From: a virus
Lineage: Duplodnaviria; Heunggongvirae; Uroviricota; Caudoviricetes
DNA length: 33,382 nt
Direction: 5' to 3' (one strand)
IMG/VR virus record: IMGVR_UViG_2874945390_000012
The notes beneath the pieces are model-generated. The model had not been told where the DNA came from, ran no database searches, and saw only the letters and a program-made list of their open reading frames with translations. This document shows positions 25,411-29,999 of the stretch, piece by piece (the stretch's first letter is position 1; each line of letters starts with the position of its first letter). Position numbers and translations under genes: made by a program.

Positions 25411-25436
25411 AAAAAGCCGGATTTACCGGCTTCATT
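25411..25436 (-). terminator. Rho-independent terminator after the Mor/C-like gene
   Basis: Minus-strand sense TGAAGCCGGTAAATCCGGCTTTTTTT: 7-bp stem, 5-nt loop, T7; identical to the element at 17857-17885. Confidence 0.65.
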
Positions 25437-25438
25437 GA

Positions 25439-25888
25439 TTAAGGACGTCGTGGCGGACGACGAACGGGGTGAGGCAGGTTCGGGGAGTGGTAAAACAAAT
25501 CCGGCTGGTATTTATTACACTCCAGACGCCGCATCCGTTTGATGGCCTTGTAGACGGTTTTATACGTCACCCCGTAACGCTGAACCAGTTCAGGAATATT
25601 ATGGCCGTTAAAATCACGCCAGATACGCATATCCCGGACAAGATTCTCCAGAATATTCCCCCTCGGAACATAAACCTGCATCCCGCCGATATGGCGACAA
25701 ATCGCCACAACCAGCTCAAGGGAATGAGCAGGGTCTGCGCCAATCCGGGCCAGCTCTTTACGCAGCAGTGCGTTCAGTTCAGAAAGTAACGCCGGATAAG
25801 CCGTGTTTTCCTGGTAATCGTTAAGGTATTCCAGAACGCTGTCGTCCCGGAAGTCTTCGAATAAATCCTGCTCTTTCATCTGTTTCAT
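25439..25888 (-). CDS. mor: Mor/C-family transcriptional activator (closest to Mu Mor)
   Basis: ...DPAHSLELVVAICRHIGGMQVYVPRGNILENLVRDMRIWRDFNGHNIPELVQRYGVTYKTVYKAIKRMRRL closely matches the Mu Mor C-terminal HTH region as I recall it. Confidence 0.85.
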   Translation of the reverse strand: MKQMKEQDLFEDFRDDSVLEYLNDYQENTAYPALLSELNALLRKELARIGADPAHSLELVVAICRHIGGMQVYVPRGNILENLVRDMRIWRDFNGHNIPELVQRYGVTYKTVYKAIKRMRRLECNKYQPDLFYHSPNLPHPVRRPPRRP

Positions 25889-25939: not shown

Positions 25940-26434
25940 TCATAGCCGCGCAGCTCCTGCCCGGTTTCGCTCACAGGTAAAGGCACACCATGTCGGGCAA
26001 AGGCTCACGGATGCAGCGCATATGCCACTGTTTGAGCGTTTCGAGCACAACCTGCAACGATTCCCGTGACACCAGGCCAGCGTGGAAACACCCTGACCGC
26101 CATTACGTCTGGCTGTCAGGCGTTCAACGTATTTGTCCAGCGCAGCGTCGCTGATATCGGAGACGAAACCATCAAGGAACATCTGCTGCCAGATTTTATA
26201 AATCTTCTCGCGCGGTGTGACATGCCCCTTAAAGCGACGGCGGGGATGTTTTTTCTGCTTCTTAAAACCGCGCTCTTTCATGGCATCGAGCACACGTTCC
26301 AGTTGTGCAACGGAAAGCTCGCGGCAACTGGTTTTGCCCGTGCACTGCACCAGAAAGGTGCGGTAAGTGTCATCGTCGAGTTGCAGGTCACGACGGGCAA
26401 CATGAATTAATTTAATCAGGGATGTGCGGCTCAT
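25940..26434 (-). CDS. gemA: GemA-like protein (Mu gp16 family); C-terminal ~50 aa possibly out of frame
   Basis: N-terminus MSRTSLIKLIHVARRDLQLDDDTYRTFLVQCTGKTSCRELSVAQLERVLDAMKERGFKK is GemA-like; the C-terminal segment is Cys/Arg-rich and atypical, while an alternative frame reads protein-like. Confidence 0.7.
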   Translation of the reverse strand: MSRTSLIKLIHVARRDLQLDDDTYRTFLVQCTGKTSCRELSVAQLERVLDAMKERGFKKQKKHPRRRFKGHVTPREKIYKIWQQMFLDGFVSDISDAALDKYVERLTARRNGGQGVSTLAWCHGNRCRLCSKRSNSGICAASVSLCPTWCAFTCERNRAGAARL

Positions 26435-26747
26435 TATGTCCCCCCGGATTTAAAATTAATTCGGTGTTGAATAGCTCTTTACTCATTCGATGTAGCACAT
26501 CGAGGGCGGCAACTGCCGCTACTTTATCCTGGCTGGCAATGATTTTTCGTAATTCCTCAATAATCCAGGCTGGACTTAATGATTCGGCAATCATCGTGCG
26601 TTTTTCTGAAATTAAATTTTCTCTGGCCTGCTCATAGCGTTGGTATACGACATTATCCAGAAAATCATTTACCTTTTGTTCTGACATGCCACTGGAAATT
26701 AAGGTTGCAGCCATTAAATCAGCATCAGTAATCATCTGTATTTTCAT
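26412..26747 (-). CDS. Hypothetical early protein
   Basis: 111-aa ORF in the early operon; coupled overlaps with neighbours. Confidence 0.5.
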   Translation of the reverse strand: MKIQMITDADLMAATLISSGMSEQKVNDFLDNVVYQRYEQARENLISEKRTMIAESLSPAWIIEELRKIIASQDKVAAVAALDVLHRMSKELFNTELILNPGGHNEPHIPD

Positions 26748-27087
26748 CTCTTAATACCTTTTCTGGATTCAGGAAAACTGCGCCGGTAACCTCCAGCAGA
26801 TTCACCAGAGCATGGGTCGCAATTGCTGCAGCCAGGCAATCACCGTTGTAGCAGGCATTGTCGATAACGCTTTTTATTATTCTTATCAGCGATGGCAGTG
26901 TGGTGTTTTCCAGAATTTCCAGCCTGAACTGCTTCAGCCAGTATTCATATTCAGCTTCATCAAATGGACGCTCACCCATCAGTTCCGTCAGTGTTGCATC
27001 GGCCTGCTCTGGCGTATATCCACTGACAACCAGTTGCGCCCGCATTTCAGCCCGATATTTCGGGTCGTCATAAATACGTTTACTCAT
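26725..27087 (-). CDS. Hypothetical early protein
   Basis: 120-aa ORF in the early operon. Confidence 0.5.
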   Translation of the reverse strand: MSKRIYDDPKYRAEMRAQLVVSGYTPEQADATLTELMGERPFDEAEYEYWLKQFRLEILENTTLPSLIRIIKSVIDNACYNGDCLAAAIATHALVNLLEVTGAVFLNPEKVLRDENTDDY

Positions 27088-27262
27088 TTCTTAATGCATC
27101 CTCACAATAAAAGATTTCACCGGAATAACGTTTTTGTATGCGCTCCATCACCTGCATACATGCCTGCTCTGTGGGCCAGATTTTTTCTGTTACAGGTATG
27201 GCATCGCAGGCATCATTCCCACAGGTGCCAACCAGCAGGACAAAGCCAATTGACTTAATCAT
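27080..27262 (-). CDS. Small Cys-rich exported protein, possible lipoprotein
   Basis: MIKSIGFVLLVGTCGNDACDAIPV...: N-terminal signal-like hydrophobic segment ending in Cys, four further Cys; ATG at 27262 overlaps the upstream stop by 8 nt. Confidence 0.5.
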   Translation of the reverse strand: MIKSIGFVLLVGTCGNDACDAIPVTEKIWPTEQACMQVMERIQKRYSGEIFYCEDALRNE

Positions 27263-27794
27263 GCCCGCTGATTTCCTGTGTTTCCGCCGGAACCGGTGAA
27301 TAATCAAGAATGAGATAGCGCAGGACGTGGTCGGTGATATTCCAGCCACTGGAGCCACAAATAAAACGACCCAGCCGGATATCGATATACGCCATCACAA
27401 AACGGGGCATTCCCTGTTTGCACATCTCGTCATCCACTTCAGCAACGATGTAAACCGGCTCGCAGGTCAGTACGCCTGTCGCAAATTCTTTTGCCAGTGC
27501 CGGAATGGCGTTACCTTCCAGCCAGGGCAAAGAACGACGGAACGTGCACCATGCAGCATCATCAACCCCTGGCAGCTCCGTTGTGTTTCGCCTTACAGGT
27601 GACGTCAGACGAGGGCGCGGAACGTCATAAAATCCGTTGCATTCGGTGAGCACTCCGGCATCAACCGCATCACGCAGGAAATACACCATTGACGAGGGCA
27701 GCATATTCATTTTTTCAGCCAGAACCCCGCAGGTCAGACGCCCGTAAGCCCGTAATAATGTGCTGACACCGTTCAGAACTTTTGCATCAATCAC
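27255..27794 (-). CDS. Hypothetical early protein
   Basis: 179-aa ORF in the early operon. Confidence 0.5.
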   Translation of the reverse strand: MIDAKVLNGVSTLLRAYGRLTCGVLAEKMNMLPSSMVYFLRDAVDAGVLTECNGFYDVPRPRLTSPVRRNTTELPGVDDAAWCTFRRSLPWLEGNAIPALAKEFATGVLTCEPVYIVAEVDDEMCKQGMPRFVMAYIDIRLGRFICGSSGWNITDHVLRYLILDYSPVPAETQEISGHD

Positions 27795-27797
27795 CGG

Positions 27798-28352
27798 TTA
27801 TTCCTCCGTCAGTGCCACAAATTCAGAATGTTTAATGCGCTGGCATTCGGCAGGAACCGGTCCCTTAACCTCACCATCCAGCAGGCACACCTCAAACAAA
27901 ATGCCGAATCCGTCACGGCTGTGGTGCATCGTCCAGACTGATTTGAGATCAAACATGTTGGGTACAACATCAACCCCGAGTTCATTACACAACCAGACCG
28001 GGAATGTGGGATATTTCCGGAGTTGCTCTTCATGTTCCTGAATAAGCGTCGCATTGTTTCGGCCTTCCGGTGTTGTTATATCCGGTACAACGCCATAAAA
28101 CTGAAATCCACCAATAAACAGTCCGTCTGATTTACCACGCCATAATTCCGGCGCTAATTGATTCATCCAGATACATTCAACCCGTTCATACCCTCTGTTA
28201 CTGACAAGGGAAACACCGTCTGCGCCAAACGCACGCTGCAATGAGCAGATGATTTTGTCACGCTTAACAGAAACATCTTTCAGCCAGCGAATCGTATAAC
28301 CGTTAGCGGCTGCGTCACTCAGTTTAAAATAAGCATATGCTTTCATATTCAT
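27798..28352 (-). CDS. Hypothetical early protein
   Basis: ORF starting MNMKAYAYF... with SD GGAAA upstream; ~185 aa. Confidence 0.5.
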   Translation of the reverse strand: MNMKAYAYFKLSDAAANGYTIRWLKDVSVKRDKIICSLQRAFGADGVSLVSNRGYERVECIWMNQLAPELWRGKSDGLFIGGFQFYGVVPDITTPEGRNNATLIQEHEEQLRKYPTFPVWLCNELGVDVVPNMFDLKSVWTMHHSRDGFGILFEVCLLDGEVKGPVPAECQRIKHSEFVALTEE

Positions 28353-28443: not shown

Positions 28444-28968
28444 TTAAATACCGGCTTCCTGTTCAAACGGAATAATAGAAAAATCTTCAATGCCTGATTT
28501 AACTGTAATTCCGGCGACACCTGCGACTGCTTTCGGCTCCAGTAAAATCGCTTCCTTGTTGATTTCCTGTTTCGTGCGAATAAAGCGTTGAAGGCCAAGA
28601 CGCTCCAGTGTTTCCATCACTGCATCCACACCGCGAATACTTACTGATGGTGGGCGCTGACGCCATGACACATCACCGGTTACCAGGTTTGCCGTCTTCA
28701 CCTTGCCGCCGTTCGTCAGTTCGTCACGGTTCGCTTCACACCATCCCTGAACGCCTTTTGAAAGGGTTTCGATACTGGTTTTAAGCGGTGCAATCTGTGA
28801 GGCGTATTTCTCCGTAATCTCAGCGATAGCGTCATTCATTTCCGTTTCAAGTCGTGCTGCTTCGCGTTGCAGGTCCCCAATCCGGCGGATATCACATACC
28901 ACGGCATCGCGGGATTGCGGAACATAAGCCGCTGCGGCGTTCCTGATTCGTTTTGCGGGTTTAGCCAT
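28444..28968 (-). CDS. gam: Gam, host-nuclease inhibitor (Ku-like DNA end-binding protein)
   Basis: 174 aa; MAKPAKRIRNAAAAYVPQSRDAV...GVQGWCEANRDELTNGGKVKTANLVTGDVSWR...SGIEDFSIIPFEQEAGI closely resembles Mu Gam as I recall it. Confidence 0.9.
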   Translation of the reverse strand: MAKPAKRIRNAAAAYVPQSRDAVVCDIRRIGDLQREAARLETEMNDAIAEITEKYASQIAPLKTSIETLSKGVQGWCEANRDELTNGGKVKTANLVTGDVSWRQRPPSVSIRGVDAVMETLERLGLQRFIRTKQEINKEAILLEPKAVAGVAGITVKSGIEDFSIIPFEQEAGI

Positions 28969-29720: not shown

Positions 29721-29999
29721 TCAGTGGCATGTTTTTTCAACAGCCATTTCAGTGACACGGCCACCGGTGATGACACTATCGTTTTTCAAAATCTCGATAG
29801 CTTCATGGGCTGACTCATTAATTATTTTCTGGCTTTTATTAAGCACCAGTAACGCCACCATGCCAGCAAGTGTACCCTCATCACCGTCCAGTTCCGCACT
29901 ACCGTCCACCGCAATGCTGGTGCGCAAATTCAGTCCTTTAATTCCAGATACTGTATTTTTAATTTCAATAATTACTTTTGCCATTTTGTTATTCCTCAC
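29721..29999 (-). CDS. Hypothetical early protein
   Basis: 92-aa ORF (alternative start at MAKVII, 29984). Confidence 0.45.
   Translation of the reverse strand: MRNNKMAKVIIEIKNTVSGIKGLNLRTSIAVDGSAELDGDEGTLAGMVALLVLNKSQKIINESAHEAIEILKNDSVITGGRVTEMAVEKTCH

What the first reader, a model, noticed from the sequence alone, without database searches (positions are those of the whole stretch)
26412..28352. Early accessory block between gam and gemA, including a small Cys-rich exported protein
Five tightly coupled ORFs of unknown function lie between gam and the gemA-like gene, the semi-essential region where Mu-like phages carry host-takeover and anti-defence cargo. One (27080..27262, ~60 aa) has a signal-like N-terminus ending in Cys (VLLVGTC) and four further cysteines, typical of a small lipoprotein or periplasmic protein. 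Prophage-encoded small lipoproteins often mediate superinfection exclusion. Its start and stop each overlap a neighbour by 8 nt.
Basis: inference. Interest (0 to 1): 0.55.

Follow-up and report, generated by a model that had tools for sequence, protein, structure and literature searches.

The report
Mu-like prophage early accessory gene block
The interval holds five real but ordinary accessory genes of a Mu-type prophage, and its small cysteine-containing protein is most likely a compact cytoplasmic protein, distantly like the prophage lysis protein YdfD, not an exported lipoprotein.

Summary
The five minus-strand ORFs at 26412-28352 are real and tightly coupled. Junctions run from +3 to -23 nt, and two are exact 8-nt overlaps. 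dN/dS is 0.10-0.21 for the three genes tested (O3-O5). They form a mosaic of exchangeable cassettes in the semi-essential early region of a Mu-type prophage. O1 equals SfMu gp11 (100% aa). O2 is Mu gp11 (86%). O5 resembles SfMu gp14 (42%). O3 and O4 belong to PHROG families of unknown function.

The lipoprotein reading of the 60-aa O3 is not supported:
- Its box is VGT|C, and it has four cysteines in total, not five.
- None of 20 family representatives passes a full lipoprotein rule.
- The hydrophobic N-terminus is the most conserved segment.
- AlphaFold2 models it as a core beta-strand (pLDDT 89).

The O3 family also sits in early-left recombination operons of unrelated temperate phages. In Erwiniaceae it is a syntenic chromosomal gene. 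Profile comparison links it weakly to DUF1482 (YebW/YdfD; E 2.6e-5, probability 75%). YdfD is a cytoplasmic prophage lysis protein that binds IspG.

My best reading is a small cytoplasmic binder of a host protein. Its function is untested. This is a new member of a known kind and of low interest.

The parts
27798..28352 (-). O1: 184-aa protein (probable true start at 28346, giving 182 aa). Identical to SfMu gp11, which RefSeq names 'DUF5420 family'. PHROG 2260. Function unknown.
27255..27794 (-). O2: 179-aa homologue of phage Mu gp11 (Mup11). GTG start with a GGAGGA Shine-Dalgarno 7 nt upstream. Function unknown.
   Evidence: 86% aa identity to Mu gp11 and 84% to SfMu gp12. Pfam PF25754 Gp11_C at E 1.1e-38 and PHROG 1949 at E 8e-101. 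87% nt identity to Mu. RBS. The N-terminal 89 aa has no significant Pfam match.
27080..27262 (-). O3: 60-aa protein with four cysteines (C14, C19, C35, C53). PHROG 16556. Predicted beta-beta-alpha-beta mini-protein. Overlaps both neighbours by 8 nt.
   Evidence: PHROG 16556 at E 6.5e-25. Deep HMM search finds 29 cluster representatives. AlphaFold2 pLDDT 89.3 with strands 2-14, 19-29 and 50-59 and a helix at 32-45. Lipoprotein rule failed. dN/dS 0.15-0.21. hhalign to DUF1482 gives E 2.6e-5.
26725..27087 (-). O4: 120-aa protein. PHROG 27371. A rare cassette bounded by a 12-nt direct repeat.
   Evidence: PHROG 27371 at E 1.5e-79. Homologues only in E. coli/Shigella. Full length in 5 of 5,426 E. 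coli genomes. One distant phage hit, Klebsiella Kp4866-3 at 37%. dN/dS 0.17. Precisely absent from the FDAARGOS_943 prophage.
26412..26747 (-). O5: 111-aa protein. PHROG 1988. Homologue of SfMu gp14. Overlaps gemA by 23 nt.
   Evidence: 42% identity to SfMu gp14 at E 1.3e-22. PHROG 1988 at E 2.7e-42. Only sub-threshold Pfam/NCBIfam hits: DUF6308 at 19.6 bits and GpsB at 21 bits. dN/dS 0.10.
27084..27095 (-). Junction repeat copy 1 (ATTAAGAAATGA), containing the O4 start codon.
   Evidence: The 12-mer ATTAAGARATGA occurs only twice in the window, where 0 matches are expected. A related prophage has a single junction and lacks O4.
26744..26755 (-). Junction repeat copy 2 (ATTAAGAGATGA), containing the O5 start codon.
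28444..28968 (-). gam, the upstream boundary gene (host nuclease inhibitor).
   Evidence: Pfam Phage_Mu_Gam at E 1.9e-43. 92% identity to Mu Gam.
25940..26434 (-). gemA-like downstream boundary gene, frameshifted after codon 125.
   Evidence: Pfam GemA at E 4.8e-27. 82% identity to Mu GemA over residues 1-125 only. Two 1-bp deletions relative to three intact homologues.

Best explanation
The interval is the variable part of the semi-essential early operon of a Mu-type (Muvirus) prophage of the E. coli/Shigella lineage. It holds five translationally coupled accessory genes. They are probably transcribed with gam, gemA and mor on the early transcript during lytic growth (inferred). Each is an independently exchangeable cassette, and the block is a new combination of already catalogued cassettes (shown).

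The small protein O3 is most likely not exported. Its hydrophobic N-terminus is probably the first core strand of a 60-residue beta-beta-alpha-beta cytoplasmic protein (predicted). O3 belongs to a family found in three settings: Mu-like prophages, the early-left recombination/anti-restriction operons of unrelated temperate phages, and a syntenic chromosomal site in Erwiniaceae (shown). The family is probably a distant branch of the DUF1482 (YebW/YdfD) group (suggestive, not proven).

By analogy with YdfD, which binds and inhibits the cytoplasmic enzyme IspG, the most likely mode of action is stoichiometric binding of a cytoplasmic host protein early in lytic development (inferred). The target is unknown. 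The other four proteins have no assignable function. I take them to be host-takeover or phage-replication helpers of the kind historically mapped to this region.
For: Context:
- Mu A, B, gp7, gp8, gp9, gam, gemA and mor homologues flank the block, all on the minus strand.
- No promoter-like site lies inside the block, and a strong terminator-like hairpin follows mor at 25413-25433.
- Junctions run from +3 to -23 nt.

Mosaicism:
- O1 is 100% identical to SfMu gp11, O2 is 86% identical to Mu gp11 and O5 is 42% identical to SfMu gp14. O3 and O4 are absent from Mu and SfMu.
- Cassettes come and go in E. coli prophages.
- O4 is bounded by a 12-nt direct repeat and is precisely missing from a relative.

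O3 is not a lipoprotein:
- Rule test gives 0 of 20 representatives.
- G6 is invariant, and residues 5-13 have the lowest entropy: 1.2 bits against 1.96 bits for the helix.
- P0014 has a net negative n-region, P0021 has LLL|C and P0037 has H-x-H in place of the two cysteines.
- The AlphaFold2 model has pLDDT 89.3 with residues 2-14 as a paired strand.
- Whole-length fold matches (TM 0.7-0.84) are to other 53-67-aa uncharacterised phage proteins.

Family spread:
- 80 IMG/VR loci, none with Mu neighbours.
- Next to Sak4/SSB/methylases, Lar/SSB/xis-int, or RecE-RecT.
- 80 Erwiniaceae species loci, 60 with the same 85-aa neighbour and 56 with osmC.

DUF1482 link:
- hhalign of the O3-family profile against a YdfD/YebW profile gives E 2.6e-5, probability 75%, 52 columns.
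- Controls score 9.6-10.3 reversed, 10.6 +/- 2.5 column-shuffled, and 17.9 +/- 3.1 with the N-terminus held fixed. The real score is 29.9.
- Against YebW alone, E is 2.7e-4.
- ydfD sits in the same kind of operon (cI ... dicB-ydfD-recE).
- YdfD binds IspG through residues 1-28 and loses activity when 1-5 N-terminal residues are removed (PMC8835842).
Against: - No experiment bears on any of the five proteins.
- The O3 model rests on seven near-identical sequences, and AlphaFold2 is not a signal-peptide predictor.
- Several clades of the family do carry a canonical-looking lipobox (VSA|C, VSS|C, LTS|C) directly after a hydrophobic run. A very short lipoprotein signal cannot be excluded.
- I applied the lipoprotein rule from memory of PROSITE PS51257. 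SignalP and LipoP were not available.
- The DUF1482 link is weak. The Pfam DUF1482 model does not hit O3 even at E <= 10.
- Enlarging the alignments lowered the hhalign probability to 60%, and sequence-profile scores are only 10-12 bits.
- One of 150 N-terminus-fixed shuffles reached the real score.
- The four conserved cysteines are unexplained.
- Early-operon transcription is inferred from Mu, not shown here.
Confidence: 0.6

Rival explanations
1. One reading: O3 is a small lipoprotein or periplasmic protein, exported through residues 1-13 and acylated at C14. It blocks a receptor or DNA entry and so gives superinfection exclusion, as T5 Llp or the Cor proteins do.
For: - Hydrophobic run IGFVLLVG followed by Cys, with K3 in the n-region.
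- Related clades have canonical-looking boxes VSA|C, VSS|C and LTS|C.
- The cysteine pairs are lost or kept together in some members, which could reflect disulfides.
Against: - O3's own box is VGT|C, with Cys at position 14.
- No representative combines a box, a K/R and a Cys position of at least 15 (0 of 20).
- Position -1 includes P, T, V and L. One member has a net negative n-region, and one replaces both cysteines with His.
- The segment is the best-conserved part of the protein, with an invariant Gly-aromatic pair. That is the opposite of typical signal peptides.
- It is modelled as a core strand at pLDDT about 90.
- Acylating C14 would leave an odd number of cysteines.
- No internal promoter is predicted, and the operons concerned are repressed in lysogens.
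- The probable relative YdfD acts in the cytoplasm and needs its intact N-terminus.
Confidence: 0.12
2. O3 is a functional equivalent of YdfD: a single-gene lysis or host-killing factor that inhibits IspG (or another Fe-S enzyme of envelope precursor synthesis) and is held in check by neighbouring early genes.
For: - Remote profile similarity to DUF1482 over nearly the whole length.
- Same size, same hydrophobic N-terminus directly after Met, and the same conserved [IV]-Y-x-T-x-x-x-C plus a later Cys.
- Same operon class, next to kil/dicB-type and recombination genes.
- YdfD biology is described in PMC8835842.
Against: - Identity is about 15%, and the Pfam DUF1482 model does not detect O3.
- The acidic C-terminal tail that the YdfD authors propose as inhibitory is not conserved in O3.
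- A core chromosomal copy in nearly all sampled Erwiniaceae is hard to reconcile with a potent lysis protein.
- Target specificity cannot be inferred at this distance.
Confidence: 0.1
3. The block serves the phage's own transposition, replication or regulation (the genetically defined arm and cim functions of the Mu semi-essential region), rather than host takeover or anti-defence.
For: [quoted passage not shown]
- O2 (gp11) is conserved at 84-87% nt identity in Mu, D108, SfMu and Yersinia Mu-like phages. That fits a phage-intrinsic role.
Against: - O1, O3, O4 and O5 are each missing from many otherwise similar Mu-type prophages.
- The O3 family occurs in non-transposable phages and in bacterial chromosomes.
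- Which open reading frames correspond to arm and cim is not established in anything I could read.
Confidence: 0.2
4. The genes are decaying remnants in a defective prophage and no longer have a function.
For: - gemA carries two frameshifting deletions.
- O3 is a frameshifted pseudogene in other prophages.
Against: - All five ORFs are intact and full-length relative to homologues.
- dN/dS is 0.10-0.21 for O3-O5.
- The gemA lesions lie in short homopolymer runs and could be sequencing errors.
Confidence: 0.05

Closest known systems
Semi-essential early region of phage Mu and SfMu (Mup11-Mup15; SfMu gp11-gp16)
   Same: - Same position between gam and gemA, same strand and the same tight coupling.
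- O2 is Mu gp11, O1 is SfMu gp11 and O5 is related to SfMu gp14.
- Another gene of this region, Mup07, is reported as the counter-defence gene gnarl2 (bioRxiv 10.1101/2023.04.06.535777). Its homologue lies at 29721-29999.
   Different: Mu gp12, gp13, gp14 and the opposite-strand gp15 are absent. They are replaced by O3 and O4, which neither Mu nor SfMu carries. The exact five-gene combination was found at 80% or more coverage in only one of 5,426 E. coli genomes.
DUF1482 (PF07358; PHROG 1092): E. coli YebW and the Qin-prophage lysis protein YdfD
   Same: - Proteins of about 60 aa that start with a hydrophobic stretch directly after Met.
- A variable Cys pair in the following turn (YebW and Klebsiella phage Kp4865-4), a conserved [IV]-[YH]-x-T-x-x-x-C and a later Cys.
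- Both phage-borne and chromosomal members.
- Phage copies sit in early-left operons beside recombination genes.
- Profile-profile E 2.6e-5.
   Different: - O3 is not detected by the Pfam DUF1482 model and falls in a different PHROG.
- Identity is about 15%.
- The C-terminal parts differ: O3 has a predicted final strand with C53, whereas YdfD has an acidic tail.
- IspG binding and lysis are shown only for YdfD (PMC8835842).
Small phage lipoproteins for superinfection exclusion (T5 Llp, Cor of phi80/N15/HK022), cited from general knowledge
   Same: Small size, a hydrophobic N-terminus followed by Cys, and phage origin.
   Different: Those proteins have charged n-regions, signals of about 15 residues or more, and canonical lipoboxes. 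O3 and its family fail these tests, and the segment is conserved and predicted to be structural.
Small phage-encoded protein inhibitors with alpha/beta mini-folds (AcrIC8, AcrIC9, T7 Gp2)
   Different: Scores are at the level of generic fold resemblance. ClpS, the RuBisCO small subunit and a topoisomerase domain score the same. Identity is 6-12%, and there is no evidence of homology or of anti-CRISPR activity.

Membership tests
Bacterial lipoprotein (signal peptidase II substrate; PROSITE PS51257 rule as recalled) | Lipobox [LVI][ASTVI][GAS]-C | tested here: not met
   O3 has V-G-T|C. Among 20 family representatives, 6 have a DOLOP-type box and 7 match the PROSITE pattern. Position -1 is A, P, T, S, V or L.
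Bacterial lipoprotein (signal peptidase II substrate; PROSITE PS51257 rule as recalled) | Positively charged n-region (K/R in the first 7 residues) and Cys at positions 15-35 | tested here: not met
   O3 has K3, but its Cys is at position 14. Seventeen of 20 representatives have no K/R, and P0014 has a net negative n-region. The full rule is passed by 0 of 20.
Bacterial lipoprotein (signal peptidase II substrate; PROSITE PS51257 rule as recalled) | Cleavage and acylation in vivo | not testable with these tools
   Needs globomycin or palmitate labelling. SignalP and LipoP were not available.
Mu-type semi-essential early-region accessory genes | Located between gam and gemA/mor, co-oriented with the early operon of a Mu-like transposable phage | tested here: met
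   A, B, gp7-gp9, gam, gemA and mor homologues lie in Mu order on the minus strand. There is no internal promoter-like site, and a terminator-like hairpin follows mor.
Mu-type semi-essential early-region accessory genes | Dispensable and variable among related phages | tested here: met
   Presence/absence counts in 5,426 E. coli genomes and three differently composed prophages. Dispensability for growth itself was not tested.
Phage Mu gp11 family (Pfam PF25754 Gp11_C) - O2 | Match to the family model above the gathering score | tested here: met
   131.8 bits against a cut-off of 27, at E 1.1e-38, covering the full 78-position model. 86% identity to Mu gp11.
DUF5420 - O1 | Match to the family model | tested here: inconclusive
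   O1 is 100% identical to SfMu gp11, which RefSeq names a 'DUF5420 family protein'. The Pfam copy available here returned no family for O1, even at E <= 10.
PHROG 16556 - O3 | Match to the family profile over its full length | tested here: met
   E 6.5e-25 over profile positions 2-55 of 55. Distant representatives P0013, P0021, P0028 and P0037 hit the same PHROG.
DUF1482 (PF07358; YebW/YdfD) - O3 | Match to the Pfam model | tested here: not met
   No Pfam family for O3 at E <= 10. YdfD and YebW score 91 and 123 bits against the same library.
DUF1482 (PF07358; YebW/YdfD) - O3 | Remote homology by profile-profile comparison | tested here: inconclusive
   hhalign E 2.6e-5, probability 75%, 52 columns. 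Larger alignments give E 8.8e-5 and probability 60%. Shuffle controls lie well below, except 1 of 150 with the N-terminus fixed. hmmsearch scores are only 10-12 bits.
DUF1482 (PF07358; YebW/YdfD) - O3 | Cell lysis on expression and binding of IspG (YdfD only) | not testable with these tools
   Known for YdfD from PMC8835842. No data exist for O3.
Known anti-phage defence components (PADLOC) - all five ORFs | Match to a defence-system model | tested here: not met
   No significant hit. The best is E 0.038 at 10 bits, for O3. No anti-defence protein library was available to search.

The most novel reading that the evidence does not exclude
PHROG 16556, the O3 family, is an unrecognised sister branch of the YdfD/YebW (DUF1482) group. 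These would be roughly 60-residue cytoplasmic proteins that temperate phages of several kinds, including Mu-like ones, place in their early operons to bind and shut down a specific host enzyme. One copy would have been domesticated as a core chromosomal gene in Erwiniaceae. On this reading O3 would be a new host-enzyme inhibitor (toxic or lysis-promoting) with its own target.
Probability: 0.25. Interest if true: 0.5.

Novelty: new member of a known kind. Interest (0 to 1): 0.25.

Why it matters
As it stands, the finding is a routine example of mosaic accessory cargo in the early region of a Mu-type prophage. All five genes are already in catalogues as hypothetical proteins.

Two things are worth keeping:
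- A cautionary result. A short hydrophobic N-terminus ending in Cys is not enough to call a lipoprotein, and here family-wide evidence points the other way.
- A modest lead. The small protein belongs to a widespread family with no Pfam coverage. That family shares its genomic niche, and possibly its ancestry, with YdfD, one of the few prophage proteins with a known host enzyme target. It also has a conserved chromosomal copy in Erwiniaceae.

If the link holds, a simple toxicity and pull-down experiment could reveal a new phage-host protein interaction.

Tried and rejected
- Pfam, NCBIfam and PADLOC scans of the five proteins gave nothing beyond Gp11_C for O2. Sub-threshold hits (HTH_48, DUF6308, GpsB, MotS) were disregarded.
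- PDB sequence searches for O1, O2, O4, O5 and the O3-family profile found nothing.
- Foldseek of O3 against BFVD returned only uncharacterised small phage proteins, best E 0.014.
- The AlphaFold-database library was not available.
- O4/O5 paralogy: Smith-Waterman z was about 3 (22 of 2,000 shuffles reached the score). BLASTP found nothing, and hhalign gave E 0.22. Not supported.
- Opposite-strand and nested ORFs in the block have no PHROG match. No Rfam family is present.
- No promoter-like site lies inside the block.
- Literature: no paper mentions DUF5420. Nothing specific was found on Mu gp11-gp14. The phage Tn-seq and MuC papers were not relevant.
- The search for related loci with the diverse O3 alignment failed for lack of a conserved stretch, so a single representative was used instead.
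- A Cys4 zinc site for O3 was considered. Model coordinates are not returned, so the geometry could not be checked. The His-x-His replacement in P0037 hints at metal binding, but single losses of C35 or C53 in other members argue against a strict four-ligand site.
- An upstream GTG (27358) would add a basic n-region to O3, but it lies inside O2. PGAP does not use it. In 66 of 79 IMG/VR loci an in-frame stop rules out any extension.
Full report
**What is there**

The window is a Mu-type prophage read on the minus strand. The order is transposase A (cut at the window end), B, homologues of Mu gp7, gp8 and gp9, gam (28444-28968), the five ORFs of the finding, a gemA-like gene (25940-26434), mor (25439-25888), and then lysis and morphogenesis genes.

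The five ORFs are:
- O1, 27798-28352 (184 aa)
- O2, 27255-27794 (179 aa, GTG start)
- O3, 27080-27262 (60 aa)
- O4, 26725-27087 (120 aa)
- O5, 26412-26747 (111 aa)

Junctions are +3, -8, -8, -23 and -23 nt. The two 8-nt overlaps around O3 are ATGATTAA and ATGAGTAA. Every ORF matches a PHROG family over its full length, at E 6.5e-25 to 8e-101. Against copies in E. coli prophages, dN/dS is 0.15-0.21 for O3, 0.17 for O4 and 0.10 for O5. ORFs on the other strand have no family match, and no Rfam family is present.

The observation therefore holds, with three corrections:
- O3 has four cysteines in total, not five.
- O1 most likely starts at the second ATG, 28346.
- gemA is frameshifted by two single-base deletions.

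**Relation to Mu**

- O1 is 100% identical in protein sequence to SfMu gp11, which RefSeq names a DUF5420 family protein.
- O2 is 86% identical to Mu gp11 and carries the Pfam Gp11_C domain.
- O5 is 42% identical to SfMu gp14.
- O3 and O4 have no counterpart in Mu, D108 or SfMu.

The SfMu authors already noted that their ORF11 and ORF14 are unique relative to Mu and D108, and that this part of the genome differs between the phages (PMC4406740). None of these proteins has a described function. No paper in the library mentions DUF5420.

**Accessory, mosaic character**

I counted full-length matches (80% or more of the query) among 5,426 complete E. coli genomes:

| Feature | Genomes with a full-length match |
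|---|---|
| close gam | 118 |
| O3 | 47 |
| O1 | 6 |
| O4 | 5 |
| 80% or more of the block | 1 |

Related prophages show different arrangements:
- One prophage of strain FDAARGOS_943 has O1-O2-O3-O5 and lacks O4.
- Strain bR_120_Kylling has O2-O3-O4-O5 and lacks O1.
- A second FDAARGOS_943 prophage has O1-O2, a frameshifted O3, and then Mu gp14/gp15-type genes.

O4 is bounded by the 12-nt direct repeat ATTAAGARATGA, which holds the start codons of O4 and O5. The repeat occurs nowhere else in the window. The O4-less prophage has a single copy of this junction. Its O3 then reads on to end in ...NENTDDY, the same tail that ends O4 here. O1, O3, O4 and O5 have 40-47% G+C against 54.8% for the window.

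No sigma-70-like promoter is predicted inside the block, and a strong terminator-like hairpin follows mor. This fits, but does not prove, co-transcription with the Mu early operon.

**The small protein O3: is it exported?**

I tested it in five ways.

1. *Lipoprotein rule* (PROSITE PS51257 as I recall it, plus the DOLOP lipobox). O3 has V-G-T|C with Cys at position 14, and fails. Across 20 representatives from an exhaustive HMM search, none passes the whole rule. Only O3's own clade has a K/R near the N-terminus. Position -1 is A, P, T, S, V or L. One member has a net negative n-region, one has LLL|C, and one has His-x-His in place of both N-terminal cysteines.
2. *Conservation.* Signal peptides usually drift, but here residues 5-13 are the best-conserved segment: mean column entropy is 1.2 bits against 1.96 for the helix. 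Gly6 is invariant and followed by an aromatic residue.
4. *Start codon.* In 66 of 79 related viral loci, an in-frame stop just upstream rules out a longer N-terminus.
5. *Setting.* The operons that carry this family are early lytic operons, not lysogen-expressed morons.

Caveats remain. The model rests on seven close sequences. Several clades do have canonical-looking boxes (VSA|C, VSS|C). No dedicated signal-peptide predictor was available. I put export at about 12%.

**Where else the O3 family occurs**

An HMM search of 1.8 billion cluster representatives found 29 at E <= 1e-3, nearly all 50-90 aa. The shared motif is M-(x)-L-I-G-F-V-L-L-V-S-x-C-G-x-D-x-C-D-A-x-P-V-T-E-x-I-Y-x-T-x-x-x-C ... 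R-P ... C-G-E-V.

- Eighty IMG/VR loci carry it with no Mu-like neighbours.
- In one such locus it lies among a Sak4-like annealing protein, SSB, a DksA-like protein and two DNA methyltransferases.
- In Yersinia phage vB_YenM_30.14 it lies between SSB/Lar and methylases, xis and int.
- In Aeromonas phage pAEv1818 it lies directly after RecE-RecT and before xis-int.
- The family is also a chromosomal gene in Erwiniaceae. Eighty species-representative genomes of Pantoea, Erwinia, Tatumella, Mixta, Rosenbergiella and relatives carry it at 69-96% identity. Sixty have the same 85-aa gene downstream, 56 have osmC and 51 have lldD.
- Neither Pfam nor NCBIfam covers the family.

**A possible link to DUF1482 (YebW/YdfD)**

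The motif reminded me of E. coli YebW, so I fetched the K-12 sequence and tested the idea.

| Comparison | Result |
|---|---|
| O3-family profile vs YebW alone | E 2.7e-4 |
| O3-family profile vs five-sequence YdfD/YebW profile | E 2.6e-5, probability 75%, 52 columns, score 29.9 |
| Control: reversed profiles | score 9.6-10.3 |
| Control: column-shuffled | score 10.6 +/- 2.5, maximum 20.5 |
| Control: N-terminal 16 columns fixed, rest shuffled | score 17.9 +/- 3.1; 1 of 150 reached the real score |
| Enlarged alignments (138 and 8 sequences) | E 8.8e-5, probability 60% |
| Sequence-profile searches | 10-12 bits, always in the same register |
| Pfam DUF1482 model vs O3 | no hit |
| Pfam DUF1482 model vs YdfD and YebW | 91 and 123 bits |

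The two families are also different PHROGs. Homology is therefore plausible, about 55-60% in my estimate, but not established.

The shared features go beyond score:
- the same length;
- a hydrophobic stretch directly after Met that lies inside the Pfam domain;
- an optional Cys pair in the following turn (present in YebW and in Klebsiella phage Kp4865-4);
- a conserved [IV]-[YH]-x-T-x-x-x-C and a later Cys;
- both phage-borne and chromosomal members;
- for the phage copies, a place in the early-left operon next to recE (cI ... dicF-dicB-ydfD-recE).

YdfD is characterised. Its overexpression lyses E. coli. It binds IspG in vitro and in vivo through residues 1-28. Removing one to five N-terminal residues abolishes activity, and the conserved cysteines are not needed for binding (PMC8835842). 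If O3 is related, its N-terminus is a working part of a cytoplasmic protein.

**Mechanism I commit to**

The block is a set of independently exchangeable early accessory genes. I expect them to be expressed from the early promoter on induction or infection.

O3 is a small cytoplasmic beta-beta-alpha-beta protein that acts by binding a host protein. Its target is unknown, and IspG itself is about 10% likely.

- Shown: gene reality, coupling, mosaicism, family distribution, and failure of the lipoprotein rule.
- Predicted: the fold.
- Inferred: the timing of expression, cytoplasmic location, DUF1482 kinship and mode of action.

For the other four proteins I can only say the following:
- O1 has a confident model (pLDDT 88.5) with no similar solved fold.
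- O2 is Mu gp11.
- O4 and O5 matched no solved structure by sequence, and no structure model was made for either.

The region's record supports a host-directed role for at least some of them. Gam is here, the genetically defined kil, arm and cim functions map here (PMC4553209), and Mup07 is reported as the counter-defence gene gnarl2. A phage-intrinsic role remains a live alternative for O2.

**Verdict**

This is ordinary mosaic accessory cargo of a Mu-type prophage, and a new combination of catalogued cassettes. The headline idea of a small exclusion lipoprotein is unlikely. The one lead worth an experiment is the O3 family's possible kinship with YdfD, together with its conserved chromosomal copy in Erwiniaceae. 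Interest 0.25; novelty: new member of a known kind.

Noticed in passing
window 25940-26434 (-), lesions near 26064 and 25985: gemA has two 1-bp deletions (GGGG to GGG, and GAAG to GAG) relative to intact homologues in Mu and two E. coli prophages. This gives a 164-aa product with an aberrant C-terminus, while the rest of GemA is readable in two other frames. It is either a pseudogene in a decaying prophage or a pair of homopolymer sequencing errors.
   Followed up: partly
window 27084-27095 and 26744-26755 (-): The 12-nt direct repeat ATTAAGARATGA brackets the O4 cassette and contains the O4 and O5 start codons. A related prophage (L003) has one junction copy and lacks O4 exactly, and its O3 then ends with O4's tail ...NENTDDY. 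This looks like a cassette gained or lost by recombination at a conserved gene-boundary sequence.
   Followed up: yes
window 29721-29999 (-): A homologue of Mu gp7 (Mup07/E6). A preprint reports this gene as 'gnarl2', a small counter-defence accessory gene thought to alter O-antigen (bioRxiv 10.1101/2023.04.06.535777).
   Followed up: no
L088-L167 (for example L104:3001-3171, with the neighbour at L104:3257-3514): The O3 family has a syntenic chromosomal orthologue in nearly all sampled Erwiniaceae species. It is usually followed by a conserved 85-aa gene and lies next to osmC and lldD. Neither small gene has Pfam or NCBIfam coverage.
   Followed up: partly
L087:2783-2966; proteins P0008-P0010: O3 is frameshifted near codon 27 in several E. 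coli prophages and is annotated as a pseudogene in a second FDAARGOS_943 prophage. The gene is evidently dispensable there.
   Followed up: partly
window 25413-25433 (-): A strong terminator-like hairpin (GAAGCCGG...CCGGCTTT followed by a T-run) lies immediately after mor, at the expected end of the early transcription unit.
   Followed up: no
window 25439-25888 (-): Mor is 149 aa, with a proline/arginine-rich C-terminal extension relative to Mu Mor (129 aa, 62% identity). A Mor of similar length is annotated in an E. coli prophage (L003).
   Followed up: no
window 27263-27358 (-), inside O2: The O3 reading frame stays open for 32 codons upstream of its ATG, from a GTG at 27358, and would encode a basic stretch (RFRRKHRKSAG) just before the hydrophobic run. 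It overlaps the end of O2, PGAP does not use it, and the wider family has no equivalent. It is the only way O3 could acquire a conventional n-region.
   Followed up: partly
protein P0037: One distant family representative replaces the two N-terminal cysteines with His-x-His while keeping the other two cysteines. This hints at a metal-ligand role for that pair.
   Followed up: no
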